A stretch of 34,345 nucleotides of DNA from Caldilineae bacterium (GTDB lineage Bacteria; Chloroflexota; Anaerolineae; DTLA01): contig JBBIHX010000015.1 of the NCBI GenBank assembly GCA_037446815.1, positions 1 to 34,345 on the forward strand. Direction: 5' to 3'. A program made the position numbers and the translations under genes. The notes below the pieces were generated by a model. It worked only from the letters and a program-made list of their open reading frames with translations, did not search any database and was not told the origin of the DNA. Shown here piece by piece: positions 1-33,089 of this stretch; within the stretch, counting starts at the first letter, position 1, and every line of letters begins with the position of its first letter.

Positions 1-30
1 GCGACGCACCTCCGAGGTGCGTCGCACGTT
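1..30. repeat. Palindromic repeat family G (GCGACGCACCTC-C-GAGGTGCGTCGC), left end cut by window
   Basis: Perfect 12-bp inverted repeat at 1-25; near-identical copy at 24460-24494. Confidence 0.8.
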
Positions 31-61
31 CCCCTGGAGCCGAATCCCCTGCCCGGCCCAC

Positions 62-90
62 TTGCGGGTCGGTCGGGCGGGTGCTATAAT
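62..90 (+). promoter_or_regulatory. Sigma70-type promoter for the kinase pair
   Basis: TTGCGG-17nt-TATAAT with extended TG; GGGAGG SD before ATG 159. Confidence 0.7.
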
Positions 91-158
91 GTTGCTGCGA
101 CCGCGGCGCATCCGAACGTATTGGGGCGGCGCAACGCTCCAATGGGAGGGCGTAGCCC

Positions 159-2162
159 ATGAAAGAGGGCCTCATGCGTATCTTCCAGCCCTTGCGGGGC
201 CTGTTCCGAGGATATCTTCACCGCATCCTCCTCGTCGCCTTCTTCTTCGTCGCCTTTGTGCCCGTGGCGTTCGGCTCCCTGGCCATCTCCCGCGTGATTC
301 AAGATTACCTGGCGCACGCCACTACCGAGCGCGTGAGCCGCGACATGAACCTGGCGCAGGCTTTCTACGACAGCGCCCGACGGCAGGTGTCCGCCGTGGC
401 GTTCAGCCTGGCGCTGGATAACGAGTTGCCCATGTACCTGTCGCCCGAGAGCGTCGGTCAGGACGAGACGATCGGCCTGATGGATCAGATGATCCTCCAC
501 CGCATCGTGAGCAACGAGTTGGAGGGGACGCAGTTCATCGGCGTATTCCGGTCCGACGGGCACCTGGTGGCAGGGCGCGTGCTTTTTGCTTACGGGGCTC
601 AGCGAGCGGTGCGGCGTGACATAGATTGGAGCAGCCTGCCCATCGTGGCGGCGGCGCTCCGGCAAGGTGCGCTGACATCGGGCACCGAGATCATCCCCGC
701 CGAGTACCTGGAACCCATTGGCCTGGCCGAGCAGGCGCGCATCCCGTTGATTGAAACGCCGCGAGCCGCGCCCGAATTGTTTGATCCGCGCGAGGGCACG
801 GCGGGGCTGGCGTTGACGGCGGTGGCGCCCGCGTATGGGCCTTCCAACAAACTGCTGGGATTCGTGGTCGTTCTGCAACTGTTCAACCGCGATTTCACCC
901 TGGTGGACCGCGTGAAGCACGTGGCTGGCGTGGACACGGCAACGATCTTCCTGGGCGACTGGCGGGTCTCCACCAACGTGCTCACCGAGACGGGCGAGCG
1001 CGCCATCGGCACACGACTGTCTGAGGAAGTGGCGAGAGTGGTCCTGTACGACGGCCAGGAGTACACGGGCCGCGCCTTCGTTGTGAAGGAGGACTTCATC
1101 ACGCGGTACTCCCCGCTGCGCGACCACGCCAATCAAATCGTGGGCATTCTGTACGTGGGCGCGCGCGAGGGGGCATTCCTGTCGCTAGTGCACGACTTCA
1201 ACCGCCGCGTCGTGCTCATCGCCGTCGTGAGCATCGTCATCGCGGTCATCTTGTCGCTGCCGGTGGCCCGATCCATCACCCAGCCCATCAGCACGCTGGT
1301 GGCGGCCAGCGCCCGGGTCGCCCACGGCGACATGTCCGTCCGCGTGCCCGAGAAGGGGCGCGGGGAACTCCGTCAACTGTCCGAAGCCTTCAACCGCATG
1401 GTGAACGAACTCCAAACCACCCAGGACGAACTCCTGCACGCCAGAAACCTTGCGTCCATCGGCCAGTTGGCGGCGGGGGTGGCACACGAAATCAACAACC
1501 CCCTAGGCACCATCATGTTGTATTCTGACATCCTGAACCGCGAAGTGCCGCCCGATTCCACTATCAAGGATGATTTGCAGATGATCGCCCGCGAGGCGGC
1601 GCGCTGCAAGGAGATCGTTACGGCGCTTCTGAACTTCGCCCGCCAGAGCCGCGTCATGGCCCAGGAGACCGACGTCAACGCCCTCGTGCGCGAACTCGCC
1701 GACGACTTGGAGCGCCTGCCGCTGTACGGGAATGTAATCATCGTCCAGAAACTGGACCCCAACTTGCCTATCATCCAGGCCGACCCGTCGCAGTTGCGGC
1801 AGGTGCTGGTGAACCTGGCCAACAACGCCGCCGAAGCCATGCCCGAGGGCGGCACGCTGACCTTCACCACGGCGCTGGACCCGGCGGGCGACCGCGTCCA
1901 CATCTCGGTGGAAGATACCGGCATCGGCATCCCGCCGGAGAACATCCCCAAGTTGTTCACGCCTTTCTTCACAACCAAGCCCATCGGCCGCGGCACGGGA
2001 CTCGGCCTGGCCATCACCTACGGCATCGTCAAAATGCACCGAGGACAGATCACCGTCCAGAGCCAGGTGGGCAAGGGAACCCGCTTCACCGTGATTTTGC
2101 CGTTGCGCATCCCGCACGCGCAGAACGGCGCGCCTTCGGGTGAAATCATGGGCATCGGATAG
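159..2162 (+). CDS. Membrane sensor histidine kinase (extracytoplasmic Cache-like domain, HAMP, HisKA, HATPase; NtrB-like)
   Basis: Two TM segments; HAMP (ITQPI..L..A..RVAHGD); H-box AHEINNPL; N box [30 protein letters not shown]. Confidence 0.93.
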
Positions 2163-2176
2163 CAGGAGGCGACCGC

Positions 2177-3376
2177 ATGGCAGAGCAAATCCCGCGCATA
2201 CTGGTCATTGACGACGAGTTGGGAATCCGCGAGGGGTGCCGCCGCATCCTCGCGCCTCTCGGGTACTCCGTGCAGGTGGCCGAGAACGGCACCGAGGGCC
2301 TCCGCATCGTGCGGGAGTGGAGCCCCGACCTGGTGCTCCTGGACGTGATGATGCCCGACATCACGGGCATAGACCTCCTGGAGCCCATCCACGCCCACGA
2401 CCCCGACATCGTGTGCATCATCATCACCGGATACGCCACCATTGAACTGGCCGTCCAGGCGGTGAAGCGCGGCGCCTACGACTTCATCTCCAAGCCGTTT
2501 TCGGGCGACACGCTCATCCTGGCCGTGCACCAGGGGCTGGAGCGGCGGCGTCTGGTGCTGGAGTCCAAGCGCATGCAGACGCTGGAGGCCGAGGCGCGGG
2601 AACTGGCGCGGGCCAAGGAAGAACTGGAGCGCCTGGACAAGATGAAGAGCGCCTTCATGCTGACGGTGGCCCACGAACTGCGCGCGCCCGTGGCCGCCAT
2701 CCAGGGCTACCTCCGCCTCATCCTGGACGGGTACGCCGACCCCGACAAGCAGCGCGAGATGCTGGAACGATCTGACCAGCGCGCGTCGGAGTTGCTGGCG
2801 CTGATAGAGGACCTGCTGGCCCTCGCCCGCGTGAAAGACGCCGCGCCCGAGGACAAGCGCGTCCCCGTCCCCGTGGGCGAGGTGCTGAAACAGGTTGCCG
2901 AACTGCTGCAGGTGGAGGCCGCCAAGAAGAACATCGCCTTCTCGGTGCAGGCGGACGTGAATCCCACTGTCTTGGCCACCCGCGACCATATTCGGCAATT
3001 GTGGACCAACCTCATCAGCAACGCCATCCGCTACACGCCCGAAGGCGGCAAGGTCTCGGTAACGCTGACCGTGCGCGGCGACACGGTGGAGGGCTCGGTG
3101 GCGGATACGGGCATCGGCATCGCGCAGGAAGACCTGCCGAGAATCTTTGACGAGTTCTACCGCACGCGCACGGCGAAGGAGATGGTATCCGGCGGCACGG
3201 GGCTGGGGCTGCCCATCGTCAAGCGCATCGTGGAGACCTACGGCGGGAATATCCGCGTGGAGTCGGAGGTGGGCAAGGGGTCGCGGTTCACGTTCACGCT
3301 CCCGCTCCACGCCGAGGCCCGGCCCGAAGCCGCAGCGGAGGCCCCGCGCCGAGCGGAGTCGGGCGCGCAGGGTTGA
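2177..3376 (+). CDS. Hybrid receiver-histidine kinase (REC-HisKA-HATPase), cytoplasmic
   Basis: [25 protein letters not shown]-box [36 protein letters not shown]. Confidence 0.93.
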
Positions 3377-3392
3377 GCCACGCGCCGTAGCA

Positions 3393-3767
3393 TCACCCGT
3401 CGGATGGCTGCGGCAGGTGCGCCAGAATGTCCGCCACGGCGACGGGCTTGCGCAGCCACGCCGTCGCGCCCAGAGCCGCCGCCTGCTCCTGCATCTCGCC
3501 CACCGGCCCGTCCAGCGACGACACGACGATGACCCTCATCCCCCCGTGAGCCAGGCTCATGCGGATTTGGCGGAGGGTGTCCAGCCCGTCCAGCGTGTAG
3601 GACATGCGCATGTCCAGGATGAACAGGTCTGCGGGGTAAGAGGAGAGGAGCGCGACGGCCTCTTTCCCGTTGCGGCATGCGCGGACGTCGTGCCCTGCGC
3701 CCTCCAGCGCCAGGCGCATTTGCTCCACGAAATCGGCGTCATCGTCCGCGATGAGAATCCTCGCCAT
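3393..3767 (-). CDS. Single-domain response regulator (CheY-like receiver)
   Basis: MARILIADDD..ILDMRM..VVSS..RKP; start moved to ATG 3767. Confidence 0.88.
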   Translation of the reverse strand: MARILIADDDADFVEQMRLALEGAGHDVRACRNGKEAVALLSSYPADLFILDMRMSYTLDGLDTLRQIRMSLAHGGMRVIVVSSLDGPVGEMQEQAAALGATAWLRKPVAVADILAHLPQPSDG

Positions 3768-3797
3768 TGGGGATGCTCCGTTTCCGCGCAATGGGCG

Positions 3798-4637
3798 CTA
3801 ACGGCGCTTGAGCAGCCGTCGCACCTCGTCCACCAGCCGCTGCGGGCTGACCGGTTTGGATAGCAGTTGGTCTATGGGCAGGTCTTCTCCCGTTGGGAAC
3901 AGGGCCGCGTGCTCGGAAGTGGGGATGGACGTGATCATCAGGATGGGGACATCGGCGATTTCCGGCTCCTTGCGGAGGTCTCGCGTGGCGTCCACGCCGT
4001 CCAGCAGGCCCTGCATCATCACGTCCATGATGACGAGGTCGGGCTTCAATGCCCGTGCGCGGGCGAGGGCGGCCTCCGCCGTTGCGGCGCTCACCACGTC
4101 CATCCGTTCTGCCTTGAGCACCTGGCGCACGATCTCCACAAAGTCGGGGTCGTCGTCCACAACCAGAATGCGCGGCGGGGCGGCCTCCGGCAGCGTCCAC
4201 TGGTGTGGCTCCTTGAACGTCTGGAGCACGTGCGATGTGGTAACTCGGGAGATTCCCGGGATTAGGCTGATCTTCTCGGTCAGGAATCGGGAAAGGGCGG
4301 CCGTGTTTGCCAGGAGCACCTCTGCCATGAGGTCATACTCGCCCGTGAGGAAGTGGGCGCAGCGCACCTCGGGCAGCGCGGCGAGGGCATTCCCCACCCG
4401 CTCAACTTGCCCAACGTCGGCCTTGATGAGCAAGATCGTATGGGTACCCAGCCCCAGCCACTCCGGCTTCACGCAGGCGGAGAAGGAGACGATTCCCTCT
4501 TCCATGAGCCGCTCCAGCCGCTTGCGCACGGTGGCCTCGGCCACGCCCAGGGCGCGCGCCACGTCCACGTTGCTGGCCCGCCCGTCCGCCTGCAGATAGC
4601 GGATGATCTCCCGATCCAGGTTGTCTATCTGGTACAC
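3798..4637 (-). CDS. Lrp/AsnC-family regulator (HTH + RAM) fused to a C-terminal receiver domain
   Basis: IDNLDREII..LQADGRAS..VARALGVAEATVRKRL HTH; TGEYDL RAM motif; then ILVVDDD..IMDVMM..ITS..SKP; GGAGG SD before GTG. Confidence 0.9.
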   Translation of the reverse strand: MYQIDNLDREIIRYLQADGRASNVDVARALGVAEATVRKRLERLMEEGIVSFSACVKPEWLGLGTHTILLIKADVGQVERVGNALAALPEVRCAHFLTGEYDLMAEVLLANTAALSRFLTEKISLIPGISRVTTSHVLQTFKEPHQWTLPEAAPPRILVVDDDPDFVEIVRQVLKAERMDVVSAATAEAALARARALKPDLVIMDVMMQGLLDGVDATRDLRKEPEIADVPILMITSIPTSEHAALFPTGEDLPIDQLLSKPVSPQRLVDEVRRLLKRR

Positions 4638-4677
4638 GCCCAGCCCTCCTCAAGGCTGAAGGATCGCAGGCGTCCCC

Positions 4678-5577
4678 CTAGAACAGCAGCGCAAGCCAGC
4701 GATCCAAGCAGGCCAATGTCAAGATGAGTCCCAGATACGGATAAGCGGAAAGTTTGTACATCTTCCAGGCCGCCTGGGTCATCCCCGTGCGGAACAGGCG
4801 CACGCTGCTCCAGACGAGGGCCACGTTGAGAGCCAAAGCCCCCGCGGCATACAACGCGCCCAAGTTGCTGTAGAACGGCATGGACAGGGTCTCCACACCC
4901 AGCGCCACCGCCAGGCCCAGGAGGATACCCATGTTCTGGCGTGGGGTGATGGTCAGTGGGAAGATGCGCACGCCGGCCTGGAGATAGTCGTGCCGATAGG
5001 CCTCCATAAGACTCCACACGTGGATGGGCGTCCAGATGAAGATGAGGCCGCACAGCCCCCACATCAGCGGCTCGGGGCGCGGGTTCACCCCCAGCCACCC
5101 GATGAGAAACGGGGCGCAACTGGCGAACTCGCCCAGGGGCACGTGGGTGATGGACCGCTTGCGGACGATGACCGAGGCCAGCACGCCCACCAGGCCGGCG
5201 GCGAAGGCCCACGGGTTCAGCGCCCACGCGATGATGAGCCCCACCAGCACCAGGCCGATGGCCAGCGGCAGCATCCGCTCGGCGGGCCAAATGCGGCGAC
5301 TGGGCAGGGGCCGGTGGCGCGTGCGTTCCATGCGCGCGTCCATGTCGCGGTCCAGGTAGTTGGTCAGGGCGTTGGCGCCCGCGCTCCCAACGGTTACCGC
5401 CAGCGTCGTCCACAGCAGGCGACCCAACGGCGGCGCGCCGTCCGCGGCCAGCACTGCCGTCGCCAGGCCGGCGAACGCCAGGAGCAGCGTCTCGCGCGGC
5501 TTGAGCACCTGCACATAGGCGCGCCAGTCGGTCCCTCGGCGCGTTGTTTGCACGGATACCGTCTCGTCGGTCTGCAC
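4678..5577 (-). CDS. cyoE: UbiA-family prenyltransferase, protoheme IX farnesyltransferase (CyoE/CtaB)-like
   Basis: LKPR start motif, NYLDRDMDARMERTRHRPLPS, WTPIH..YRHDY; multiple TM helices. Confidence 0.75.
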   Translation of the reverse strand: MQTDETVSVQTTRRGTDWRAYVQVLKPRETLLLAFAGLATAVLAADGAPPLGRLLWTTLAVTVGSAGANALTNYLDRDMDARMERTRHRPLPSRRIWPAERMLPLAIGLVLVGLIIAWALNPWAFAAGLVGVLASVIVRKRSITHVPLGEFASCAPFLIGWLGVNPRPEPLMWGLCGLIFIWTPIHVWSLMEAYRHDYLQAGVRIFPLTITPRQNMGILLGLAVALGVETLSMPFYSNLGALYAAGALALNVALVWSSVRLFRTGMTQAAWKMYKLSAYPYLGLILTLACLDRWLALLF

Positions 5578-5641
5578 GTTCGGTCCCTCGGACGTAAGGA
5601 TTTGTGCCAGTCTAGCCCCGGCAGGCGCAGGATGGATTGCC

Positions 5642-6472
5642 CTACCTGGGCTCTTCGGTTGCGCCTGCGGCGATCAGGTCCAGGCCCACCGTGAGGAGGT
5701 GCTCCACGGCGGGGTTCACCGGTCCAGGCAACGCCCGTAAGTCTACCGTCTTCAGGCGATTTTGGCAAACCGGACACTCGTAGAGGCGATAGGCCGCGTG
5801 GCTCGTGGGATAGTACACGAGATTCTCGTCGTTGGAGCAGAAGGTGCACCCGGTGCGTCGGTAGGGCCAGCAGGTGAAGCAGCGCTGGCAGAAGAGGTAG
5901 CGCCCCCCGACCGACGGCTCGAGCAGCGCCAGGACGGGCGCGCTTCCGCAGAACGGGCACACGGGCCGCCGCCAGTTGTCCAGCGGCAAACGGGGCACCA
6001 CGGCCCCCGCCAGGCGGCGCAGTTCCCCCTCCAGCGCCATCTCCACCGCGGCCTCGGTCAGCGACCCGCTGTCGGCCAGGAGCGAGCGGCGCTGTTCCAC
6101 GGCGGCGTGGGCAAGGGCCAGCAGGGCATCCGGCGGGGACTCCACCGCCGCGTCGGCCCACTCGTCGCGGTACTTGCGAAGAATCTCCGCCATGTGCACG
6201 ACCGCCTCGGCGAAGCGCACGCCGTCCAGTCGGAGGTCCTCCCACCGAACCCAGGGCGCGCCCTCGGCCATGTGGCGGCTGTCGGAGGTGGAGAAGGGAA
6301 GGGGCGTGCCCTTCCCTTCCCCCTCAGCCAGGGCTTGCGCCGCAAGGATTTCCTCGTACAGCGCCAGCAGAGGCGCCAAGCCCGAATGGTCGAGCCCTTT
6401 CTCCCGCAGGGCGGTGAGCGTATCGGCGATGGTGTAGTGAGATGGCAGAGGCCGATCCGCATTGGGACACAT
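5642..6472 (-). CDS. fdhE: Formate dehydrogenase accessory protein FdhE
   Basis: C-terminal CPFC, CQRC, CTFC, CPVC pattern (W..PVCPFCGS.P, R.L.C..C...W..R..C..C); directly after fdnI. Confidence 0.88.
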   Translation of the reverse strand: MCPNADRPLPSHYTIADTLTALREKGLDHSGLAPLLALYEEILAAQALAEGEGKGTPLPFSTSDSRHMAEGAPWVRWEDLRLDGVRFAEAVVHMAEILRKYRDEWADAAVESPPDALLALAHAAVEQRRSLLADSGSLTEAAVEMALEGELRRLAGAVVPRLPLDNWRRPVCPFCGSAPVLALLEPSVGGRYLFCQRCFTCWPYRRTGCTFCSNDENLVYYPTSHAAYRLYECPVCQNRLKTVDLRALPGPVNPAVEHLLTVGLDLIAAGATEEPR

Positions 6473-6473
6473 G

Positions 6474-7205
6474 CTAGTCCGCCTTCCCGTGGGCAGCCGC
6501 CTTCGCCTTGGCTTCCTCGTACAGTTTCTTGGCCCGTTCCTCGCCGTAGTACCACTTGGCGTGGTGCTCGCGGGCGTAGGATTCGGAGATGACGCCGTAC
6601 CGCATGCTCACCAGGGATTGCCACATCAGCGGGTGCGCAACCGCCAGGTAGAAGTGGATGATGAACATGCTGACGGTAACGAACATGGTGAGGTCGTGGA
6701 TGATGACCGCCGCCTGGAACACCCACACCGGCAGCACGCCCTTGCCGAACCACATGAGGGCGCCGGTGAGCACGAAGATGATGGTGCCCGAGACCAGGAT
6801 AACGGCATTCATCTTCTCGCCGGTGTTCCATCGGCCCTGCGGCGGCATGTCCACATGGCGGCCCAGCAGGTAGTAGGGGATCGCGCCCTTGAGCCAGCCG
6901 ACGTCGTCGCGCCCGAATCGCAGTTCCTTCAGGGTGAGCAGCAGGCGCCGGGGTTGCACGATGGCGTAACTGATGGGCACCGCGGCGAAGAGGACTGCGC
7001 TGATGCGGTGCACCAGGCGCATGAACTGCCCGGCCTCGCCCCGCGCCAACGGCGCCAGGAACGGGAAGAACAGCACCATGCCCGTCAGCGTGAGCAGGAT
7101 GAAGGTCAGGGTGTGTCCCCAGTGCAGGTACCGCTCCAGCGCCGTGTAGCGCGGAATCCAGCGGATGCGTATTGCCGTGTCAGAACCTTTCAGTCGCACG
7201 CTCAT
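6474..7205 (-). CDS. fdnI: Formate dehydrogenase gamma subunit (di-heme cytochrome b)
   Basis: RYT..ER..HW, four TM His ligands, PPQGRWNTGEK; ATG 7205 overlaps fdnH stop (ATGA). Confidence 0.9.
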   Translation of the reverse strand: MSVRLKGSDTAIRIRWIPRYTALERYLHWGHTLTFILLTLTGMVLFFPFLAPLARGEAGQFMRLVHRISAVLFAAVPISYAIVQPRRLLLTLKELRFGRDDVGWLKGAIPYYLLGRHVDMPPQGRWNTGEKMNAVILVSGTIIFVLTGALMWFGKGVLPVWVFQAAVIIHDLTMFVTVSMFIIHFYLAVAHPLMWQSLVSMRYGVISESYAREHHAKWYYGEERAKKLYEEAKAKAAAHGKAD

Positions 7206-7993
7206 TCTACTTCCTCCATGCGGATATGTCGCCGCGCGATGACAAACGCTGTAACAGCCGCCAGCGCGGTTACGCCGAAGGACACGCCCACCAGCGGCTG
7301 CACCCAATCTTGCCAGACGTGGGTGAGAGCCGGCGACGCGGGGCTGGTGGGCAGGCCATAGGTTTCGGGCTTGTCCAGCAGCACGTACATACGCCCGAGG
7401 CCGCCCAACAGCACGTCGCCGTACAGGTTAGCGTTGGGGTAGCCGTTCTTCTGGAGGTACAGCACCCGCTCGCGCCCTTTGGCGATCATCTCGTTCCGCT
7501 CGCCGAAGGAGAAGGCTCCGGGGGGGCAAGTCTTTACGCAAGCCGGCTTCTCGCCGTTGGTAACCCGGTCCATGCAGAAGGTGCACTTGAACGACTTGCC
7601 CTTGCCGGTGAGCGTATCGGTGAGCAGGCGAGGGATGTGGAACGGGCAGAACTGGGTGCAATACCCGCAGCCGTTGCACAGGTCCTGCTCCAGGGTTACC
7701 AACCCCATGGGGTGGTGCTTGAGCGCGCCGGTGGGGCAGACTTTGACGCAGGCGGCGTCGGTGCAGTGCATGCAGCCCTGGGCCAGGAAGAGCCAGCGCA
7801 TCTGCCCGCCCTCGTACTTCTCAATGAAGCGGATGCGCGTCCAGGTGTAGGGCGACAGGTCAGGCGGGTTCTCGTAGGAGCCACGGTTCTTGGTCAGGGT
7901 GCCGGGCAGGTCGTTCCACTGTTTGCAGGCGACCTGGCAGCCCCTGCAGGCCGTGCACTTGGAGGAGTCATAGAGCATCGCTACTTTTTCCAT
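7202..7993 (-). CDS. fdnH: Formate dehydrogenase beta subunit (4x[4Fe-4S], C-terminal TM anchor)
   Basis: CTACRGCQVAC, CMHC..C...C, CNGCGYC...C, CTFC..C...C; C-terminal hydrophobic helix. Confidence 0.93.
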   Translation of the reverse strand: MEKVAMLYDSSKCTACRGCQVACKQWNDLPGTLTKNRGSYENPPDLSPYTWTRIRFIEKYEGGQMRWLFLAQGCMHCTDAACVKVCPTGALKHHPMGLVTLEQDLCNGCGYCTQFCPFHIPRLLTDTLTGKGKSFKCTFCMDRVTNGEKPACVKTCPPGAFSFGERNEMIAKGRERVLYLQKNGYPNANLYGDVLLGGLGRMYVLLDKPETYGLPTSPASPALTHVWQDWVQPLVGVSFGVTALAAVTAFVIARRHIRMEEVE

Positions 7994-7995
7994 GG

Positions 7996-10900
7996 CTACA
8001 CCGCCTTTCTAACGTCCACAAGGAAAGCCTTGTATTCGGGGATCATGGTGTTGGCGTCGCCCACGTGCGGGGTGAGATCGTTGACGACATCCCCCGTGGC
8101 GATGCCCGCCCAGCCGAAGTGCCAGGGCAGGCCCACCAGGTCCACCTTCTTCCCGTCCACCACCAGCGGTTGCACGCGGTCCGTAACGATGGCGACGGCG
8201 GTAACCTGGCCGCGGGCGCTGGACACGATGACCTTGTCGCCGTTCTGGATGCCCTTGCGGCTGGCGAGGTCTTTGCTCATCTCCACGAACAGTTCGGGTT
8301 GCGCCTCGGCGAGCCAGGGGAGCGTGCGGGACATGGCGCCGGCCTGCCAGTGCTCCACGACGCGGTACGTGGTGGCGACGATGGGGAACTTGTCGGCTGT
8401 GCCCACATGGTCGCCGATCTCCTTGTCCTGGTCCGTAGTCCACAGTTTGATGACCGGGTTGTTCTGGGTACCGGACAGGAGGTTCTTGACCGGGCTTTCC
8501 AGCGGCTCATAGTGCTCGGGGAAGGGGCCATCGGCCAGCGGGCCAAATAGCCAACCCTTGCCGTCGGTGAGCATGATGAAGGGATCTTTGCCGCCGGGGT
8601 CGGTGGGCGCTCGGGTTGGGACGAAGTCGGGCACGTCGTAGCCCACCCACTTCTTCTGCGCCTCGTCCCACCAGATGAGGGCCTTCTCCTGGCTCCACGG
8701 CTTGCCGTTGGCGTCGGCCGAGCAGCGGTTGTAGATGATATGGCGGTTGACCGGCCAGACCCAGCCCCAGTAGGGGTAGGTGCCCAGGCCGCCCGGGTCT
8801 TTGGTGCCGCGGCGCTTGGCGGCGGGGAGTCGGCGGCCCTCGCCGTCGTCCGCCGTGGCGAAGTACCCGGCGTAAATCCAGCAGCCAGAAGCGGTGGTGC
8901 CATCGTCGCGCAGGACGCCGAAGGTGGTGAACAGGTCGCCCTTCTTGCCCACGATGTTGCCTTTGTCGTCCACCACGTCGGCGGCCCAGTAGCCGTTGAT
9001 CTCCATCGCCACGCGCTCGGGGTTGGGCGGGTCGCCGTAGTCCCAGGTGAGGTCCAGGATGCCCCTGTCCTTGGCGGCCGTGCTTCCGGCGTAGGCCTGC
9101 TTGATGGCCTTCATCAGGCGATCCAGAATCCAGATGTCGTCCTTGGCATCGCCAGGGGCACGGGCCACGGCCGGTCGCCACTGGATGAGTCGGCCGCTGG
9201 TTACGATGCTGCCGGCTTTTTCCATGGCGTCGGCGGCGGGGAGGAGGAAGACCTCGGTCTTGACCTCTTTGGGGTCCACCCCAGGCGCGTGCCAGAACCC
9301 GGCCGTCTCGGTCTCAAACAAGTCCATGACGACCATCCAGTCCAGGTTGCCCAGGCTCTTGCGCTCCATGCGGTTGTTGGGGCCCGACACCGCGGGGTTC
9401 ATGCCCATGATGAACATCCCCTTGATCTTGCCCGCATGGAGGGCCTGGAACAACGAAATCCACGAGTGATCGCCCGCCCGCTTGGGCAGGTAATCAAAGT
9501 AGAAGTCGTTGTCCTTGGTGGCCGCGTCGCCCCACCAGGCTTTGAGCAGACTGATGAGGAATTTGGGCTTGTTGGACCAGTAACTGGTCTTGGGGGTTTC
9601 CTTCTGGATGTACTCCGCAAGGTTCTTGTGGGCCGCCGCAGACGGTGTGCCGAGGTACCCGGGCAGGACGTGGTAGAGCACGCCCATGTCGGTGGAGCCC
9701 TGAACGTTGGACTCGCCCCGCAAGGCGTTGACGCCGCCGCCCGGAACTCCGATGTTGCCCAGGAGCAACTGCAAGAGGGCCATCGCGCGCACGTTCTGCG
9801 ACCCGACGGTGTGCTGCGTCTGGCCCATGGCGTACAGGATGGTGCCCGCTTTTCCGGGCTGCCCCGTGGCGGCGAAGGTTTCGGCGACTTTCAGGAACTG
9901 GTCTTTCGGGCAGCCGGTGATGCGCGATACGACGTCGGGGGTATAGCGGGCGTAGTGCTTCTTCAGGAGTTGGAAGACGCAGTTCGGGTCCTGCAGCGTC
10001 TCGTCGCGCTTGATGTTCCCGTCGGCATCCCGCTGGTAGGCCCACGTGGCGCGGTCATAGGTGCGGCTGGTCGGGTCGTAGCCGGAGAACAGGCCATCCA
10101 GGTCCGCGGGGCCTTTGAAGTCCGGCGAGACGAGCGTAGCGGCATTGGTGAAGTTGACTACGTACTCCTTGTGGTACAGTTCGTTCTGCAGGATGTGGTT
10201 GATGATGCCGCCGAGGAAGGCGATGTCGGTGCCGCTGCGGATGGGGGCGTAGATGTGGGCCTTGGCTGCCGTGCGGGTGAAGCGAGGGTCCACGACGATG
10301 AGTTTCGCGCCCTTCTCTATGGCGGCGTTGACCCAGTACATGGACGCCGGATGGTTCTCGGCGGGGTTGGCTCCGATGACGAAAATGCAGTCAGAGTTCT
10401 TCAGGTCAATCCAGTGATTGGTCATGGCACCACGGCCATACGTTGCGGCCAGACCGGCCACAGTGGCCGAGTGTCATATCCGCGCCTGGTGCTCTATCCA
10501 CACCAGGCCCAAGGCGCGCGCGAATTTCTGCGCCACGTAGCAGTCCTCGTTGTTGTTGGCGGCGCCGCCCAGCCACGCAATGGCCTGGGTGCGGTTCACG
10601 GTAACGCCGTTGGCGTCCTTCTCCTCAAAGGTGGCATCGCGCGTGGCCTTCACCCGCTTGGCGATTTCGGCGATGGCCCAGTCCCACGTCTTTTCCTCCC
10701 ATTTGTCGCTGCCGGGAGCGCGGTAGAGGACCTTCTTGAGGCGACGGTCGCTGATGGACAACTGGCGCACCGAGACGGACTTGGGGTCCAGGCCGCCACG
10801 GTTGATGATGTGGTCAGGGTCGCCTTCGGAGTTGATGATGTGGCCGGTCTCGTCGGTGGCGATGAGGAGGCCGCATCCAACGGAGCAGTAGGGGCAGATG

Positions 10901-11034
10901 GTGCGCCCCTCCCCGATGGGCTTGTGGAGCGGGAAGCGTCGCGCTTCCTCGGCTGCGGCCAACCGCGTCGGCAGCAGCAGCCCCCCAGCCGTCAACCCCG
11001 ATACTTTCAGGAAGTTACGTCGGCTGATCTCCAT
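7996..11034 (-). CDS. fdnG: Formate dehydrogenase-N-type alpha subunit, selenocysteine-containing (UGA at 10474-10476, ~1012 aa), Tat signal
   Basis: ORFs 10474..11079 and 7996..10461 are in frame across TGA: HQARI-U-HSATVAGLAATYGRGAMTNHW; SRRNFLK Tat motif; ALRGESNVQGSTD; GGAGGTG SD before ATG 11034. Confidence 0.95.
10425..10473 (-). promoter_or_regulatory. Bacterial SECIS element
   Basis: After UGA: upper stem GUGGCC-GGUCU-GGCCGC 12 nt downstream, lower stem CGGCCA/UGGCCG; the GGUCU resembles E. coli fdhF/fdnG SECIS apical sequence. Confidence 0.85.
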
Positions 11035-11154
11035 GCTAGTCTTCACCTCCGTTTGGGCTTTCGGATGCACTCGGCGCAAGCACTGTCAGTTATGTTCCCT
11101 AGTTCACCTCCTTGATGTTCACCATGAAACTTTGCATACGACATAGAACGCGAC

Positions 11155-11628
11155 TCAGGGCAGTTCAAAGGTGTTCAGCAGCGCCAGATGGGCTTTCTCC
11201 AGGTCGGCGCTGTGAATCACGCACGAGACCGTGGAGATGGACGTGCTGATGGCAAGGATGTTGACGCTCACCGACGCGAGGGCGTCAAACATCTGGCCCG
11301 CGATGCCGGGACGCTCCCGGAAGTCGGGGCCGAAGATGGACAGGATCGCCACGTCCGGGTTTGTGCGAACGCATCCGGCGCAGATTTGCGGGCTGACCCG
11401 ATTCACGAGGGCCATGGCCGCTGCCGCGTCGTCCTGGTCCACGCAGATCACGATGTGGTCGCGGTTTTCCGCATCCATGCACTGGACGATGAACTGGACG
11501 TTGATGCGGGCGTCGCCCAGCGACTTGAGCAGGGCAGCCGCAACCCCCGGCCTGTCGGGGACCGACAAGACGTCTATCTGGGCCAGATGGGTTCTGCGGA
11601 TGACGCCGCCGATGCGCGTCTTCTCCAT
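11155..11628 (-). CDS. Stand-alone tandem ACT-domain protein (aspartokinase regulatory/beta-subunit-like)
   Basis: VPDRPGVAA..INVQFIVQ and LSIFG..RPGIAGQMFDALA..VNILAISTS; AGGAGG SD before ATG 11628. Confidence 0.85.
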   Translation of the reverse strand: MEKTRIGGVIRRTHLAQIDVLSVPDRPGVAAALLKSLGDARINVQFIVQCMDAENRDHIVICVDQDDAAAAMALVNRVSPQICAGCVRTNPDVAILSIFGPDFRERPGIAGQMFDALASVSVNILAISTSISTVSCVIHSADLEKAHLALLNTFELP

Positions 11629-11695
11629 AAGGCCTCCTGGCCGCTTCAGGTTTCCCACAGGGGGATACAGCGCGGTGGTTGGCTCGCGGCCCGAA

Positions 11696-12076
11696 TCAGC
11701 CCCGCGCCAGCAGCGCCGCGATTCGCTCCTTGAGTTGCGCCGGGTTCACCGGCTTGGTGATCCACCCGTCCACCGGCACATCCCCGTCGGTAGGGAACAT
11801 CCCCGACTCCGGCGTAACGGTGAGGGAGGTAACGAGGAGCACGGGCGTCCCCTTGAGTTGCGGATCCTCGGCCATTTTGCGCGAGACGTCCACGCCATCC
11901 AGGACATAGGACATCATGATGTCCAGCAGCACCAGGTCGGGCTTGTCTTTCTTCATCATCTTCATGGCCTGGTCGCCGTTGCTGGCCGTGCTAATCTCGT
12001 ACCCTTCGGGCTGGAGGATGGAACGCACAACGGATACGAAATCGGGATCATCGTCTACGATCAGAATCTTCGCCAT
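11696..12076 (-). CDS. Single-domain response regulator
   Basis: MAKILIVDDD..LLDIMM..VTS..TKP; GAGGAGG SD. Confidence 0.92.
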   Translation of the reverse strand: MAKILIVDDDPDFVSVVRSILQPEGYEISTASNGDQAMKMMKKDKPDLVLLDIMMSYVLDGVDVSRKMAEDPQLKGTPVLLVTSLTVTPESGMFPTDGDVPVDGWITKPVNPAQLKERIAALLARG

Positions 12077-12109
12077 GCAGTGCCTCCTCTGGCTGCGGAT
12101 ATTGGGATT

Positions 12110-12481
12110 TTACGTGAGTCGCTGTACCGTTTCCAGGAGTTCCGCCGGTTTCACGGGCTTGGAAATCCAGCCGTCCACGGACAGGTAATCATCTGTGGGA
12201 AACAGCCCCGCGTGCGGCGTGTTGGCGATAGAGGTAACCATGACGATGGGGATGTGTTTGAGATTCGGGTCCTCACGGATGACCTGGCTGACGTTGAGAC
12301 CATCCAGGACTGTGGCCATCATGATGTCCAGCAGGATGATGTCGGGCCTGTCGGCGCGGACGCGCGCCAGCGCCTGGTCTCCGCTCGCGGCAGTGGTTAC
12401 CACATGGCCTTTGGACTCCAAGACCGTCCGGGCGATCTCCACAAAGTCCGGGTCATCGTCCACTACGAGCACCTTCGCCAT
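12110..12481 (-). CDS. Single-domain response regulator
   Basis: MAKVLVVDDD..LLDIMM..VTS..SKP; AGGAGG SD. Confidence 0.92.
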   Translation of the reverse strand: MAKVLVVDDDPDFVEIARTVLESKGHVVTTAASGDQALARVRADRPDIILLDIMMATVLDGLNVSQVIREDPNLKHIPIVMVTSIANTPHAGLFPTDDYLSVDGWISKPVKPAELLETVQRLT

Positions 12482-12543
12482 GTTGCCCTCCTTTCACATG
12501 AGCAGCGGGCCGCGGCTTCCGATGGGGACGATCGTCTACGCAT

Positions 12544-12572
12544 ATTATAGCACAAGATACGAAAAATGTCAA
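12544..12572 (-). promoter_or_regulatory. Consensus sigma70 promoter heading the receiver-ACT-fdn gene run
   Basis: TTGACA-17nt-TATAAT with TG extension on the minus strand. Confidence 0.85.
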
Positions 12573-12588
12573 TACCCTGCGACGAAAT

Positions 12589-12601
12589 TGCGAAAATCGC
12601 A
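12589..12601. promoter_or_regulatory. Candidate Lrp/AsnC (FFRP) operator TGCGA-AAA-TCGCA
   Basis: Perfect 5-3-5 palindrome with A/T centre, 16 bp upstream of the -35. Confidence 0.45.
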
Positions 12602-12620
12602 CAGAATGCCAGCCTCATGG

Positions 12621-12755
12621 TGTCATGCAGAGCCGAAGGCGAAGCATCTCAGGGCTTGCATCCACGGATCACACGGATTGCACGGATAGGGGAAGGTAGA
12701 GCAAGTTGGCAACTTGCTCCACGAGATTCTTCGCGGCTTCGCCGCTCAGAATGAC
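12621..12755. repeat. Composite repeat: family A arms enclosing a (CACGGAT)x3 unit and a GTAG palindrome (family E, 12696-12722)
   Basis: TGTCATGCAGAGCCGAAGGCGAAGCATCTC ... GAGATTCTTCGCGGCTTCGCCGCTCAGAATGAC. Confidence 0.85.
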
Positions 12756-12782
12756 GGTGGGGGGCGCACGGCCGTGCGGGGC

Positions 12783-24279: not shown

Positions 24280-24376
24280 TTGGTTCCTCCTAATCATCAT
24301 CGCCCTTGTCGCAAGAGCGCCGTCGCGGCCAAGCAATCGCGACGGCATCCCGCGTGTGCCGACAACCTCTACATCT

Positions 24377-24404
24377 ATTGTACCACAACTTTCCATAAAA
24401 TCAA
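24377..24404 (-). promoter_or_regulatory. xerD-punA promoter
   Basis: TTGATT-16nt-TACAAT with TG extension. Confidence 0.6.
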
Positions 24405-24459
24405 TATCGGGCAGGGGCGAGATTCGGCTCGCTTCGCCCGCGATGAGAGATGGAGAGAC

Positions 24460-24494
24460 AACGTGCGACGCGCCTCCGAGGTGCGTCGCACGTT
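24460..24494. repeat. Palindromic repeat family G
   Basis: AACGTGCGACGCGCCTC-C-GAGGTGCGTCGCACGTT; matches 1-30. Confidence 0.85.
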
Positions 24495-24536
24495 TCCCTT
24501 CGCGCGGATTCGCGCGCATTCGCGGTTACAAGAGCG

Positions 24537-27237: not shown

Positions 27238-29785
<2,548 letters not shown>

Positions 29786-29827
29786 TCTGTCTTCTCCTTT
29801 GGTTACGTTGATAACCCGTAGCCGTAA

Positions 29828-33012: not shown

Positions 33013-33089
<77 letters not shown>

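What the first reader, a model, noticed from the sequence alone, without database searches (positions are those of the whole stretch)
159..12601. Formate dehydrogenase operon embedded in a multi-receiver phosphorelay with ACT and Lrp components
Seen: one consensus promoter (12544-12572) precedes REC, REC, ACT, fdnG, fdnH, fdnI, fdhE, cyoE-like, AsnC-REC and REC. All are on one strand with short gaps and no obvious terminator. They converge, 16 bp apart, on a Cache-HAMP kinase plus a REC-kinase. That totals two kinases, five intact receivers and only one DNA-binding output, the AsnC-REC. Known: E. coli fdn is controlled by NarL/FNR and fdhF by FhlA, not by this architecture. Inference: a dedicated circuit that integrates an external ligand (Cache), amino-acid-like signals (ACT, RAM) and phosphorylation to control formate oxidation. 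Best candidate in the window for an undescribed system.
Basis: partly seen in the sequence, partly recalled or inferred. Interest (0 to 1): 0.8.

Follow-up and report, generated by a model that had tools for sequence, protein, structure and literature searches.

The report
Formate-sensing signalling cassette around formate dehydrogenase
A respiratory formate dehydrogenase operon of an uncultured Anaerolineae bacterium carries its own unusual regulators, including a kinase whose sensor looks built to bind formate, and related gene sets flank formate and hydrogen enzymes across this bacterial class.

Summary
Thirteen genes have the stated domains, one perfect sigma-70-type promoter precedes them, and no terminator-like site lies inside. 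fdnG carries an in-frame TGA (selenocysteine).

- **Formate sensor.** The Cache module of HK1 matches the solved formate-bound sensors 8PY0/8PY1. It keeps all five formate-contact or pocket residues, invariant in 40 of 40 homologues.
- **Operator.** A 13-bp Lrp-type palindrome sits beside the -35 box. Its core CGA-WWW-TCG precedes 20 of 23 AsnC-REC genes in other families.
- **Conserved cassette.** The twin-ACT protein, the "FPT" receivers, the AsnC-REC regulator and the kinase core recur in Anaerolineae. The ACT protein was found in 130 of 401 genomes. 45 of 65 ACT neighbourhoods hold formate dehydrogenase, hydrogenase or NuoEF genes, most often NuoE/NuoF rather than FdnGHI.
- **Not supported.** No Hpt domain was found, so "phosphorelay" is unsupported. 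Nothing shows an amino-acid signal.

Co-transcription and phosphotransfer remain untested. Five literature searches found no description of the system.

The parts
159..2162 (+). HK1: membrane sensor kinase. It has two transmembrane helices, a two-module Cache-like extracytoplasmic domain, then HAMP, HisKA and HATPase. The second module (aa 242-344) is of the formate-binding Cache type.
   Evidence: Pfam sCache_3_3 E 2.6e-30, with HAMP, HisKA and HATPase_c. Best PDB sequence matches are the formate-bound sensors 8py1_A and 8py0_A. T262, R269, T272, T285 and Y317 are invariant in 40 of 40 homologues. AF2 model pLDDT 88.4. Foldseek match to 8py0_A: rmsd 1.7 A over 103 columns, 28% identity.
2177..3376 (+). 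HK2: cytoplasmic REC-HisKA-HATPase kinase, 14 bp downstream of HK1.
   Evidence: Pfam. Its kinase core is 48-58% identical to the single kinase of the cassette in four other families. A REC-HK lies near 33 of 40 HK1-type kinases elsewhere.
3393..3791 (-). REC5: single-domain receiver without the FPT motif; last gene of the operon.
   Evidence: Pfam Response_reg E 1.1e-18. Catalytic residues are intact. Among the loci compared it was seen only in the same genus.
3798..4637 (-). AsnC/Lrp-type HTH + RAM domain + C-terminal FPT-type receiver. It is the only DNA-binding protein of the set.
   Evidence: Pfam HTH_AsnC-type, AsnC_trans_reg and Response_reg. 315 protein clusters at E <= 1e-20; the 120 listed are 274-299 aa with the same domains and only generic names. 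Full-length homologues of 46-50% identity occur in four other families.
4678..5577 (-). UbiA-family prenyltransferase, closest to heme O synthase (CtaB/CyoE) but below its cut-offs.
   Evidence: Pfam UbiA E 7.7e-36. TIGR01473 scores 167.7 bits against a cut-off of 210.3. It is the only copy found in the genome with this query. It recurs within 10 kb of the ACT gene in 9 of 65 loci.
5642..6472 (-). FdhE-like cysteine-rich accessory protein.
   Evidence: Pfam FdhE_central 28.1 bits against a cut-off of 27. TIGR01562 scores 42.9 against 187.65.
6474..7307 (-). fdnI: cytochrome b subunit. This is the longest frame; the true start is probably downstream of the fdnH stop.
   Evidence: Pfam Ni_hydr_CYTB E 1.9e-18. 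TIGR01583 scores 107.8 against a cut-off of 115.85.
7202..7993 (-). fdnH: iron-sulfur subunit.
   Evidence: Pfam Fer4_11 and related families. TIGR01582 scores 242.7 against a cut-off of 334.7.
7996..11034 (-). fdnG: TAT-exported molybdopterin catalytic subunit with selenocysteine encoded by TGA at 10474-10476.
   Evidence: TAT_signal and Molybdop_Fe4S4 in the N-terminal part; Molybdopterin and Molydop_binding in the C-terminal part. TIGR01553 scores 1067.7 bits against a cut-off of 814.2. Context HQARI-TGA-HSATVAG. tRNA-Sec is in the genome.
11155..11628 (-). Stand-alone twin-ACT protein (157 aa from the ATG at 11628), resembling the regulatory domain of aspartokinase.
   Evidence: Pfam ACT_9, ACT_7 and ACT. 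Best PDB matches are aspartokinase regulatory domains 3l76, 5yei, 2dtj and 2dt9. The family has 57% mean column identity, with Cys62 and Cys136 invariant in 41 sequences. Found in 130 of 401 Anaerolineae genomes.
11696..12076 (-). REC2: FPT-type single-domain receiver, the kind that sits just upstream of the ACT gene.
   Evidence: Pfam, residues. Its nearest tree neighbours are receivers upstream of ACT genes. A receiver lies directly upstream of 33 of 63 ACT genes.
12110..12481 (-). REC1: FPT-type single-domain receiver; first gene of the operon.
   Evidence: Pfam, residues. Its nearest tree neighbours are the receivers that follow AsnC-REC in other families.
12544..12572 (-). Sigma-70-type promoter TTGACA-17-TATAAT with an extended -10 TG.
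   Evidence: 12 of 12 matches. Conserved in two other genomes of the genus, although the sequence further upstream cannot be aligned.
12589..12601 (.). 13-bp palindrome TGCGA-WWW-TCGCA; proposed AsnC-REC operator. It ends 16 nt upstream of the -35 box.
   Evidence: It is the only CGA-WWW-TCG site in the window and the only exact copy in the 3.19-Mb genome. It is conserved in L001 and L002. The same core lies 25-123 nt upstream of 20 of 23 AsnC(-REC) genes in other families.
12527..12536 (.). 10-bp palindrome GACGATCGTC just downstream of the -10 box, at the start of a conserved leader (to 12482).
   Evidence: Read. Invariant in window, L001 and L002. Function unknown. No Rfam family matches the leader.

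Best explanation
This is a respiratory, selenocysteine-containing, outward-facing formate dehydrogenase operon (fdnGHI with an FdhE-like and a heme-O-synthase-like gene). It has captured an Anaerolineae-specific signalling cassette and is most likely switched by formate itself.

**Proposed chain of events.**
1. Extracytoplasmic formate binds the second Cache module of HK1.
2. HK1 acts on, or together with, the sensor-less kinase HK2, either through HK2's own receiver or in parallel.
3. The kinases phosphorylate the FPT-type receivers REC1, REC2 and AsnC-REC.
4. Phosphorylated AsnC-REC binds the TGCGA-WWW-TCGCA palindrome next to the -35 box of the one strong promoter. It thereby sets transcription of the whole ten-gene unit, its own gene included (autoregulation).
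5. The free receivers, REC5 and the twin-ACT protein modulate the flow of phosphate or act on the enzyme. Their roles are open.

**Shown here.** Gene content, promoter, Sec codon, the formate-type residues and fold of HK1, the recurrence of the cassette beside formate and hydrogen enzymes, and the enrichment of the palindrome upstream of AsnC-REC genes.

**Inferred.** Ligand, phosphotransfer partners, DNA binding, the sign of regulation, and the single transcript.
For: **Enzyme.** TIGR01553 is above its cut-off, a TAT signal is present, and TGA sits at the canonical active-site position. tRNA-Sec is in the genome.

**Sensor.**
- sCache_3_3 matches at E 2.6e-30.
- The only PDB sequence matches are the two formate-bound sensors of PMC11804620 (passages read).
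- HK1 has T262, R269 and Y317 at the positions of T105, R118 and Y167 of 8PY1. It has T272 and T285 at PacF T145 and T158 (my mapping from the alignment; the spacings fit the paper's numbering in both chains).
- All five residues are invariant in 40 of 40 homologues.
- The AF2 model (pLDDT 88.4) superposes on 8py0_A at 1.7 A over 103 columns.

**Context of HK1-type kinases in 40 further loci.**
- 33 have a REC-HK in the same locus.
- 13 hold FDH or FocA genes, and 26 hold FDH, FocA, hydrogenase or NuoF genes.
- 11 hold a FocA formate channel fused to an FPT-type receiver. Pfam confirmed 3 of the 3 checked.
- 4 of the 5 FdnG-type loci among the 65 ACT neighbourhoods carry the Cache kinase, against 1 of the other 60.

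**Operator.**
- The palindrome and promoter are conserved in three genomes of the genus while the upstream flank is not.
- The core motif precedes 20 of 23 AsnC(-REC) genes, with 24 sites where about 0.25 are expected from the overall density of 0.039 per kb.
- The form matches the 5-3-5 sites of archaeal Lrp-type proteins (abstract of PMC2715240, seen in the listing).

**Operon.** No conserved promoter-like block lies between the ACT gene and fdnG, and no terminator-like site lies in the intergenic spaces.

**Cassette.** The whole layout is kept in genomes of the same genus. REC1, REC2 and AsnC-REC fall with three distinct positional classes of the cassette.
Against: - No RNA data, binding data or phosphotransfer data exist.
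- HK1 is only 20-28% identical to the characterised formate sensors. Its formate-type module is the second, membrane-proximal one of a two-module sensor, whereas in PacF formate binds the distal module.
- HK1-type kinases also sit next to uptake NiFe hydrogenases in 13 of 40 loci, and 14 of 40 loci hold no formate or hydrogen gene within reach.
- Three FdnG-type loci in other families (L024, L068, L071) have the kinases and the ACT gene but no AsnC-REC within the fetched stretch, so the output can differ.
- The exact palindrome is found nowhere else in this genome, so no wider regulon supports it.
- 3 of 23 AsnC(-REC) genes lack the motif.
- Gene maps of the other loci come from my own GC3-based ORF caller and BLAST labels. 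This caller mis-called the window's own REC1-REC2-ACT stretch.
- The genomes compared are related, so counts overstate independence.
Confidence: 0.6

Rival explanations
1. The circuit reads hydrogen, NAD(H) redox state or another small carboxylate rather than formate. It governs reducing-equivalent metabolism in general, and in this genus the FDH operon is only one client.
For: - The commonest form of the cassette has NuoE and NuoF genes between the receivers (32 of 65 ACT loci) and a 6-TM PilS-like kinase instead of a Cache kinase.
- Hox or hyp genes are nearby in several loci (HoxH 5, Hyp 12 of 65).
- HK1-type kinases lie next to uptake NiFe hydrogenases in 13 of 40 loci.
- The formate-type module of HK1 is in the proximal position, unlike PacF.
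Against: - All five formate-pocket residues are invariant in 40 of 40 HK1 homologues.
- The source paper reports these residues at 98-99% identity in 744 homologues, and the homologues it tested bound formate.
- FocA-receiver fusions lie next to 11 of 40 HK1-type kinases.
- In this genome the Hox, NuoEF-FdhA and NuoEFG clusters on contigs C36, C57 and C3 carry no cassette genes.
Confidence: 0.2
2. The arrangement is a chance or neutral juxtaposition. A signalling gene cluster was broken up by insertion of an FDH operon in this genus, and the regulators control unrelated targets.
For: - The order differs from the canonical cassette. Here AsnC-REC lies at the distal end and the kinases are convergent.
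- The FdnGHI pairing was found in 5 of 65 ACT loci and 5 of 40 HK1 loci.
- 20 of 65 ACT genes sit among housekeeping genes.
Against: - Association with formate dehydrogenases of two different types, formate channels and hydrogenases recurs in separate branches of the ACT tree and in many families.
- The Lrp-type operator has moved to the head of the operon that now contains fdnGHI.
- The sensor type (outward-facing Cache) goes with the outward-facing enzyme.
Confidence: 0.12
3. The twin-ACT protein is simply a separately encoded regulatory (beta) subunit of aspartokinase and is not part of the system.
For: Its best matches are aspartokinase regulatory domains and solved beta subunits. In a TIGR00657 scan of the genome, the ACT region of the model is matched only by this gene.
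Against: - The genome has a 393-aa aspartokinase next to aspartate-semialdehyde dehydrogenase. About 100 residues lie beyond its matched kinase domain; I did not check them for ACT domains.
- The ACT gene lies directly after a receiver in 33 of 63 cases, and 45 of 65 neighbourhoods hold a kinase.
- In family f43 it follows FdhA or the UbiA gene with no signalling genes nearby.
- Apart from the window's genome and two genomes of one further family, none of the 301 genomes in the phylum-wide sample has it.
Confidence: 0.05

Closest known systems
E. coli FDH-N / FDH-O (fdnGHI, fdoGHI-fdhE)
   Same: TAT-exported selenocysteine molybdoenzyme, iron-sulfur subunit, cytochrome b subunit and an FdhE-like gene in one operon.
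   Different: From established knowledge, E. coli fdn is controlled by NarL/NarP and FNR. Here the operon carries its own receivers, ACT protein and AsnC-REC regulator. The beta, gamma and FdhE matches are below the NCBIfam cut-offs, and a heme-O-synthase-like gene is included.
Formate-binding Cache sensor domains of chemoreceptors (PacF, Atu0526, 8PY0/8PY1; PMC11804620)
   Same: sCache_3_3 profile match, the Arg/Thr/Thr/Thr/Tyr pocket residues, and a close fold match.
   Different: The output is a histidine kinase, not a chemoreceptor. The formate-type module is the second of two modules and is preceded by a module with no Pfam match. Term searches of the paper found no mention of formate dehydrogenase or Chloroflexi and only general mentions of kinases.
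Lrp/AsnC (feast/famine) regulators
   Same: AsnC-type HTH plus RAM domain, and a 5-3-5 palindromic site of the NNCGA-WWW-TCGNN kind (abstract of PMC2715240).
   Different: A receiver domain is fused to the C-terminus, so control by phosphorylation is expected in place of, or besides, an amino-acid effector. Sources give only generic names.
Aspartokinase beta subunit (LysC-beta; 2DTJ, 2DT9)
   Same: Two ACT domains in about 160 residues, alignable over the whole length.
   Different: It is encoded in formate dehydrogenase, hydrogenase or two-component contexts, not within or beside lysC. It has invariant Cys62 and Cys136.
Hox-type NAD-linked NiFe hydrogenase and NAD-linked FDH operons (HoxEFUYH, FdsGBA)
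   Same: In other Anaerolineae families the cassette is interleaved with NuoE/NuoF (HoxE/F-like) genes and adjoins HoxU/Y/H or NuoG-like FdhA genes.
   Different: In the window there is no NuoE or NuoF; the partner enzyme is the membrane-bound FdnGHI type. I know of no account of receivers or ACT genes inside hox operons (recalled knowledge plus the searches).

Membership tests
FDH-N type formate dehydrogenase (FdnGHI) | Catalytic subunit matches the FDH-N alpha model above its curated cut-off | tested here: met
   TIGR01553 scores 1067.7 bits for the part after the TGA (cut-off 814.2) and 180.7 bits for the N-terminal part.
FDH-N type formate dehydrogenase (FdnGHI) | Twin-arginine signal and Sec/Cys at the active site | tested here: met
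   Pfam TAT_signal. The SRRNFLK motif and in-frame TGA in HQARI-U-HSATVAG are read. tRNA-Sec was found. The hairpin after the TGA is not better than shuffles (z -0.93).
FDH-N type formate dehydrogenase (FdnGHI) | Beta and gamma subunits and FdhE reach their family cut-offs | tested here: inconclusive
   TIGR01582 scores 242.7 against 334.7. TIGR01583 scores 107.8 against 115.85. TIGR01562 scores 42.9 against 187.65. Pfam FdhE_central just passes at 28.1 against 27.
Formate-binding Cache domains (PacF/Atu0526 family, PMC11804620) | Full-length sCache_3_3 match or Cache_3-Cache_2 match | tested here: met
   sCache_3_3 covers positions 3-104 of 107 at E 2.6e-30. Cache_3-Cache_2 matches partially, positions 83-188 of 299.
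Formate-binding Cache domains (PacF/Atu0526 family, PMC11804620) | Conserved Arg (PacF R142) and Thr residues (T145, T158), plus the Thr and Tyr that hydrogen-bond formate in 8PY0/8PY1 | tested here: met
   R269, T272, T285, T262 and Y317, by the HMMER alignment to 8py1_A and 8py0_A and the paper's residue numbers. They are invariant in 40 of 40 sequences. The mapping to the numbering is my inference.
Formate-binding Cache domains (PacF/Atu0526 family, PMC11804620) | Fold match to a solved formate-bound domain | tested here: met
   Foldseek match to 8py0_A: E 6.4e-8, rmsd 1.7 A over 103 columns, 28% identity. 8py1_C also matched.
Formate-binding Cache domains (PacF/Atu0526 family, PMC11804620) | Formate module is the single module or the membrane-distal module | tested here: not met
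   In the AF2 model the matching module (aa 247-336) is the second one and leads straight into the second transmembrane helix.
Formate-binding Cache domains (PacF/Atu0526 family, PMC11804620) | Binds formate | not testable with these tools
   Needs calorimetry or a thermal-shift assay on the purified sensor domain.
Multi-step phosphorelay | A histidine phosphotransfer (Hpt) domain or protein between receivers | tested here: not met
   None of the 13 proteins has an Hpt family at E <= 0.01.
Two-component system | HisKA + HATPase kinases and receivers with intact phospho-acceptor residues | tested here: met
Lrp/AsnC transcription factors | AsnC-type HTH and RAM (AsnC_trans_reg) domains | tested here: met
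   HTH_AsnC-type E 1.4e-14 and AsnC_trans_reg E 2.8e-19.
Lrp/AsnC transcription factors | Palindromic operator near its own gene or operon | tested here: met
   20 of 23 homologous genes have the CGA-WWW-TCG core upstream. In the window, the single site lies at the operon promoter. Binding itself was not tested.
Aspartokinase beta subunit | Encoded within or beside the aspartokinase gene and serving it | tested here: not met
   The aspartokinase lies on another contig (C45), next to asd. The ACT gene lies in the FDH operon.
Heme O synthase (CtaB/CyoE) | Reaches the equivalog cut-off | tested here: inconclusive
   TIGR01473 scores 167.7 against 210.3 and NF003349 scores 165.9 against 246. The genome has a COX1 gene on contig C80 and no second copy of this prenyltransferase was found with this query.

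The most novel reading that the evidence does not exclude
The FPT-type receiver is a portable phospho-switch that acts directly on formate and hydrogen proteins, not only through transcription. The same receiver type occurs in three forms. It is free, next to FDH, NuoEF and hydrogenase subunits. It is fused to the FocA formate channel. It is fused to an AsnC regulator. The twin-ACT protein, with two invariant cysteines, would be a metabolite- or redox-reading adaptor between kinase, receivers and enzyme. Together they would form a class-wide, post-translational and transcriptional control layer for formate and H2 flux in Anaerolineae, driven by a formate-sensing kinase.
Probability: 0.3. Interest if true: 0.8.

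Novelty: new variant of a known kind. Interest (0 to 1): 0.66.

Why it matters
Formate and hydrogen are the main currencies of electron exchange in anoxic communities. Anaerolineae are abundant fermenters and syntrophic partners in sediments, hot springs and digesters, yet almost nothing is known about how they regulate these enzymes.

If the reading holds, it gives four things:
- A kinase with a formate-type Cache sensor encoded next to a formate dehydrogenase operon, a pairing that my searches did not find described.
- A testable operator for a well-populated but uncharacterised regulator family (AsnC-REC, at least 315 protein clusters).
- A conserved set of small receivers and an ACT protein whose targets may be the enzymes and the formate channel themselves.
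- Parts that are small and soluble, so binding, phosphotransfer and DNA-binding tests can be done without cultivating the organism.

Tried and rejected
- **RNA evidence.** No RNA holder was listed for 3393-12620.
- **Complex prediction.** It was never run: the queue was full, then the tool was declared unavailable.
- **Exact palindrome elsewhere.** GCGAWWWTCGC was not found upstream of cassettes outside the genus. Relaxing it to the core CGA-WWW-TCG gave the result.
- **Wider regulon.** A genome-wide search for the 13-mer found 1 exact site and 2 sites with one mismatch, about the number expected by chance. No wider regulon can be claimed.
- **SECIS.** The hairpin after the TGA folds no better than shuffles (z -0.93).
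- **Leader RNA.** Rfam at gathering thresholds found only a tRNA at 33016-33089 and nothing in the conserved leader.
- **Internal promoter.** The ACT-fdnG spacer is conserved only at the ribosome-binding site.
- **Literature.** Searches of the held library found no description of the cassette, of AsnC-REC, or of a formate-sensing kinase controlling FDH. Subscription journals are not covered. Supplements of PMC11804620, including its list of 744 homologues, were not opened, so I cannot say whether HK1-type kinases are in that set.
- **Reach beyond the class.** The best 80 of 234 relatives of the ACT protein in 185,579 species genomes are Anaerolineae or Chloroflexota assemblies, except one 1.9-kb contig labelled KSB1. 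All are metagenome-assembled, so no cultured carrier was identified.

Full report
**What is in the window.** The window is a whole 34,345-bp contig (C15) of a 3.19-Mb, 93.6%-complete metagenome-assembled genome. Its nearest named relatives are labelled Anaerolineae or Chloroflexota.

- On the plus strand lies HK1 (159-2162; sCache_3_3, HAMP, HisKA, HATPase). HK2 follows 14 bp later (2177-3376; REC, HisKA, HATPase).
- Converging on them with a 16-bp gap is a ten-gene minus-strand row: REC1, REC2, a twin-ACT protein, fdnG, fdnH, fdnI, an FdhE-like gene, a UbiA/heme-O-synthase-like gene, AsnC-REC and REC5.
- fdnG is a single gene of about 1012 codons read through TGA at 10474-10476 (HQARI-U-HSATVAG). 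It has a twin-arginine signal, and the genome has a tRNA-Sec gene.
- The alpha subunit passes the FDH-N equivalog cut-off. The beta, gamma, FdhE and heme-O-synthase matches do not.

All five receivers keep the acidic pair, the phospho-acceptor Asp, Thr/Ser and Lys. REC1, REC2 and the receiver of AsnC-REC share the LFPT(D/G) motif and are 40-53% identical to each other. None of the 13 proteins has an Hpt domain.

**Promoter and operon.** The only perfect sigma-70-type promoter in 1-13000 is TTGACA-17-TATAAT, with TG before the -10 box, at 12572-12544. No terminator-like site lies in an intergenic space of the row.

I aligned the upstream region with two genomes of the same genus (about 90% protein identity, same gene order). 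The distal flank cannot be aligned. Three blocks are invariant: a block holding a 13-bp palindrome (TGCGA-TTT-TCGCA, 12589-12601), the promoter, and a second palindrome (GACGATCGTC, 12527-12536) with the leader.

The 120-bp spacer between the ACT gene and fdnG is conserved only at the ribosome-binding site. One transcript from one promoter is therefore the simplest reading, but it is a prediction. No RNA run was listed for this stretch.

**The cassette is conserved, and wider than FDH-N.** Full-length AsnC-REC homologues (46-50% identity) occur in four other families of the class, each next to several FPT-type receivers.

In the loci fetched from other families the recurring unit is, in order:
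- AsnC-REC (not always present)
- two or more receivers
- NuoE, NuoF
- one receiver
- the twin-ACT protein
- a kinase

That kinase's core is 48-58% identical to HK2 in four other families, and its N-terminus is a 6-TM PilS-like domain.

Some loci also adjoin other genes:
- a NuoG-like FdhA split by a stop, plus FocA (for example L018, L053, L054);
- HoxU/Y/H (L016, L034, L036);
- hypFCDE (L013, L017, L039).

A search of 401 genomes of the class with the ACT protein found it in 130, with an all-or-none pattern by family. Apart from the window's genome and two genomes of one further family, none of the 301 genomes in the phylum-wide sample had it. The best 80 of 234 relatives among 185,579 species genomes are, with one short exception, Anaerolineae or Chloroflexota assemblies.

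I mapped 65 ACT neighbourhoods of +/-10 kb. Sixty were chosen by me from the list for family spread and contig size. Five had been fetched earlier through AsnC-REC or receiver matches.

| Feature within the neighbourhood | Loci (of 65) |
|---|---|
| Any FDH, Hox, Hyp or NuoEF gene | 45 |
| FDH (FdnG type 5, FdhA type 14) | 19 |
| NuoEF | 32 |
| HoxH | 5 |
| Hyp | 12 |
| An FPT receiver | 44 |
| A kinase | 45 |
| AsnC-REC | 18 |
| None of the redox genes | 20 |

Pfam shows the ACT-flanking genes of the redox-free loci it sampled to be housekeeping genes. In family f43 the ACT gene follows FdhA or the UbiA-like gene with no signalling genes nearby.

On an ACT tree the FDH, Hox and NuoEF contexts lie in several separate branches. 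On a receiver tree, REC1 is nearest to the receivers that follow AsnC-REC, REC2 to those that precede ACT, and the fused receiver to other AsnC-fused ones. So the window keeps three distinct members of the cassette in a rearranged order.

In the window's own genome the Hox cluster (C36), a NuoEF-FdhA cluster (C57) and a NuoEFG-like cluster (C3) carry none of these signalling genes. The only ACT gene and the only close (FPT-type) matches to the cassette receivers are on C15.

**HK1 looks like a formate sensor.** The HK1 sensor has only two sequence matches among all PDB chains, 8py1_A and 8py0_A. These are the formate-bound single-Cache sensors described in PMC11804620 (passages read).

That paper names the contacts as follows:
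- an Arg salt bridge (R118/R111, equal to PacF R142);
- a Thr (T105/T100) and a Tyr (Y167/Y160);
- PacF T145 and T158, conserved at 98% in 744 homologues.

In the HMMER alignment HK1 carries T262, R269, T272, T285 and Y317 at these places. The Thr-to-Arg and Arg-to-Tyr spacings in both chains agree with the paper's numbers, which is how I mapped them. All five residues are invariant in 40 of 40 HK1-type sensors from this class.

An AlphaFold2 model (pLDDT 88.4) shows a long helix, a first module with no Pfam match, and a second module (247-336) that runs into the second transmembrane helix. Foldseek finds double-Cache sensors for the whole domain. For the second module it finds 8py0_A at 1.7 A over 103 columns and 28% identity, the highest identity in the list. 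The formate-type module is thus membrane-proximal, unlike PacF, and identity to the characterised sensors is modest.

**Context of HK1-type kinases.** The HK1 sensor was found in 71 of 401 genomes. I fetched 40 further loci and left out hits lying in loci already fetched around ACT genes.

| Feature within the locus | Loci (of 40) |
|---|---|
| A REC-HK in the locus | 33 |
| Two REC-HKs in the locus (typically one on each side of HK1) | 14 |
| FdnG | 5 |
| FdhA | 3 |
| FocA | 11 |
| HoxH (uptake-type NiFe, where checked) | 13 |
| Any formate or hydrogen gene | 26 |

All 11 FocA genes are fused to a C-terminal FPT-type receiver. Pfam confirmed this in the 3 examples checked. Among the 65 ACT loci, the Cache kinase accompanies 4 of the 5 FdnG-type loci and 1 of the other 60. 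An outward-facing sensor therefore goes with the outward-facing enzyme.

**A candidate operator.** The core CGA-WWW-TCG occurs 73 times in 1.87 Mb of window plus loci, or 0.039 per kb. It lies 25-123 nt upstream of the start of homology of 20 of 23 AsnC(-REC) genes in other families. That is 24 sites where about 0.25 are expected, with consensus (G/T)ACGA-WWW-TCGTA.

This is the 5-3-5 form reported for archaeal Lrp-type proteins (abstract of PMC2715240, seen in the listing).

In the window the only such site in 34 kb is the conserved palindrome 16 nt upstream of the -35 box. I place it at about -58 from the predicted start. It is also the only exact copy in the genome. The operator has thus travelled to the head of an operon that now includes fdnGHI and ends with the regulator gene. 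This is the strongest argument that the regulator controls the dehydrogenase.

**Best reading and its limits.** Formate outside the cell is sensed by HK1. HK1 and HK2 phosphorylate the FPT receivers. AsnC-REC binds the palindrome and sets transcription of the whole unit, itself included. The free receivers, REC5 and the ACT protein tune the response or act on proteins directly.

I put this at 0.6. The rivals are:
- a hydrogen, redox or other-acid signal (0.2);
- neutral juxtaposition (0.12);
- the ACT protein as a plain aspartokinase subunit (0.05). This genome has a 393-aa aspartokinase next to asd on C45.

The limits are these:
- Ligand, phosphotransfer, DNA binding and transcript structure are inferred.
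- The neighbourhood maps rest on my own ORF caller and BLAST labels, which mis-called the window's own REC1-REC2-ACT stretch.
- The genomes compared are kin, so counts are not independent events.

**Novelty.** The enzyme and the formate-type Cache domain are known kinds. Searches of the held library did not find the following described:
- the coupling of that sensor to a kinase pair;
- the FPT receiver family in its free, FocA-fused and AsnC-fused forms;
- the twin-ACT companion;
- the recurrent embedding of these genes in formate and hydrogen enzyme operons.

I rate it a new variant of a known kind (two-component control of a respiratory operon). An open and more novel possibility is that the receivers act directly on enzymes and channels.

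Noticed in passing
L183:7916-9205 (+), L175:6943-8202 (+), L189:7456-8706 (+), and 9 more genes in loci L163-L198: FocA formate/nitrite channels are fused to a C-terminal FPT-type receiver (414-520 aa as called). They lie near HK1-type Cache kinases in 11 of 40 loci. This suggests phospho-control of a formate channel.
   Followed up: partly
L012:8375-13204, L013:7928-13881, L060-L064 and others: The canonical cassette has NuoE and NuoF genes set between receivers, followed by a receiver, the ACT gene and a 6-TM PilS-like kinase. In family f32 no catalytic FDH or hydrogenase gene lies within 10 kb in 6 of 7 loci. There the flavoprotein pair may itself be a redox sensor.
   Followed up: partly
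L164, L171, L172, L175, L176: A trio of REC-HK, Cache-HK and REC-HK lies next to an uptake-type NiFe hydrogenase operon (small and large subunits, maturation protease, HybA-like Fe-S protein, cytochrome b). In four of the five loci a receiver ends that operon.
   Followed up: partly
window 12527-12536 and 12482-12543: A perfect 10-bp palindrome GACGATCGTC lies right after the -10 box, and a roughly 60-nt leader is invariant in three genomes of the genus. No Rfam family matches. It could be a second operator or an RNA element.
   Followed up: partly
window 12699-12719: A perfect 9-bp inverted repeat with a 3-nt loop (GAGCAAGTT-GCC-AACTTGCTC) lies just after the stop of the M23/LysM peptidase gene (12783-13871, minus strand). 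It is probably that gene's terminator hairpin, though no T-run follows.
   Followed up: no
window 11155-11628 (alignment A1): The twin-ACT family has two invariant cysteines (Cys62 and Cys136 of the window protein) in 41 sequences. This hints at redox or metal chemistry rather than amino-acid binding.
   Followed up: no
window 4678-5577; G000 contig C80:300-1784: The heme-O-synthase-like gene in the FDH operon is the only copy found in a genome that also has a heme-copper oxidase subunit I. This may link formate oxidation to aerobic respiration. The same gene sits next to the ACT gene or FdhA in families f43 and f48.
   Followed up: partly
L013:7270-7857, L056, L057, L059: An Rrf2-type regulator gene is divergently transcribed from AsnC-REC in two families. 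The CGA-WWW-TCG sites lie in the shared spacer.
   Followed up: no
window 23374-24519 and 33016-33089: A tyrosine recombinase (phage-integrase family) gene, and a tRNA gene near the contig end. No further sign of a mobile element was sought.
   Followed up: no
window 28712-31933 and 32075-32755: An ADP-forming acyl-CoA synthetase-like gene (CoA-binding plus ATP-grasp), a DRTGG/AAA_26 protein and a Crp-family regulator. These are ordinary fermentation genes.
   Followed up: no
L048:11493-13907: A GDP-mannose dehydratase/epimerase gene is interrupted by an intein with a LAGLIDADG domain, in another Anaerolineae genome.
   Followed up: no
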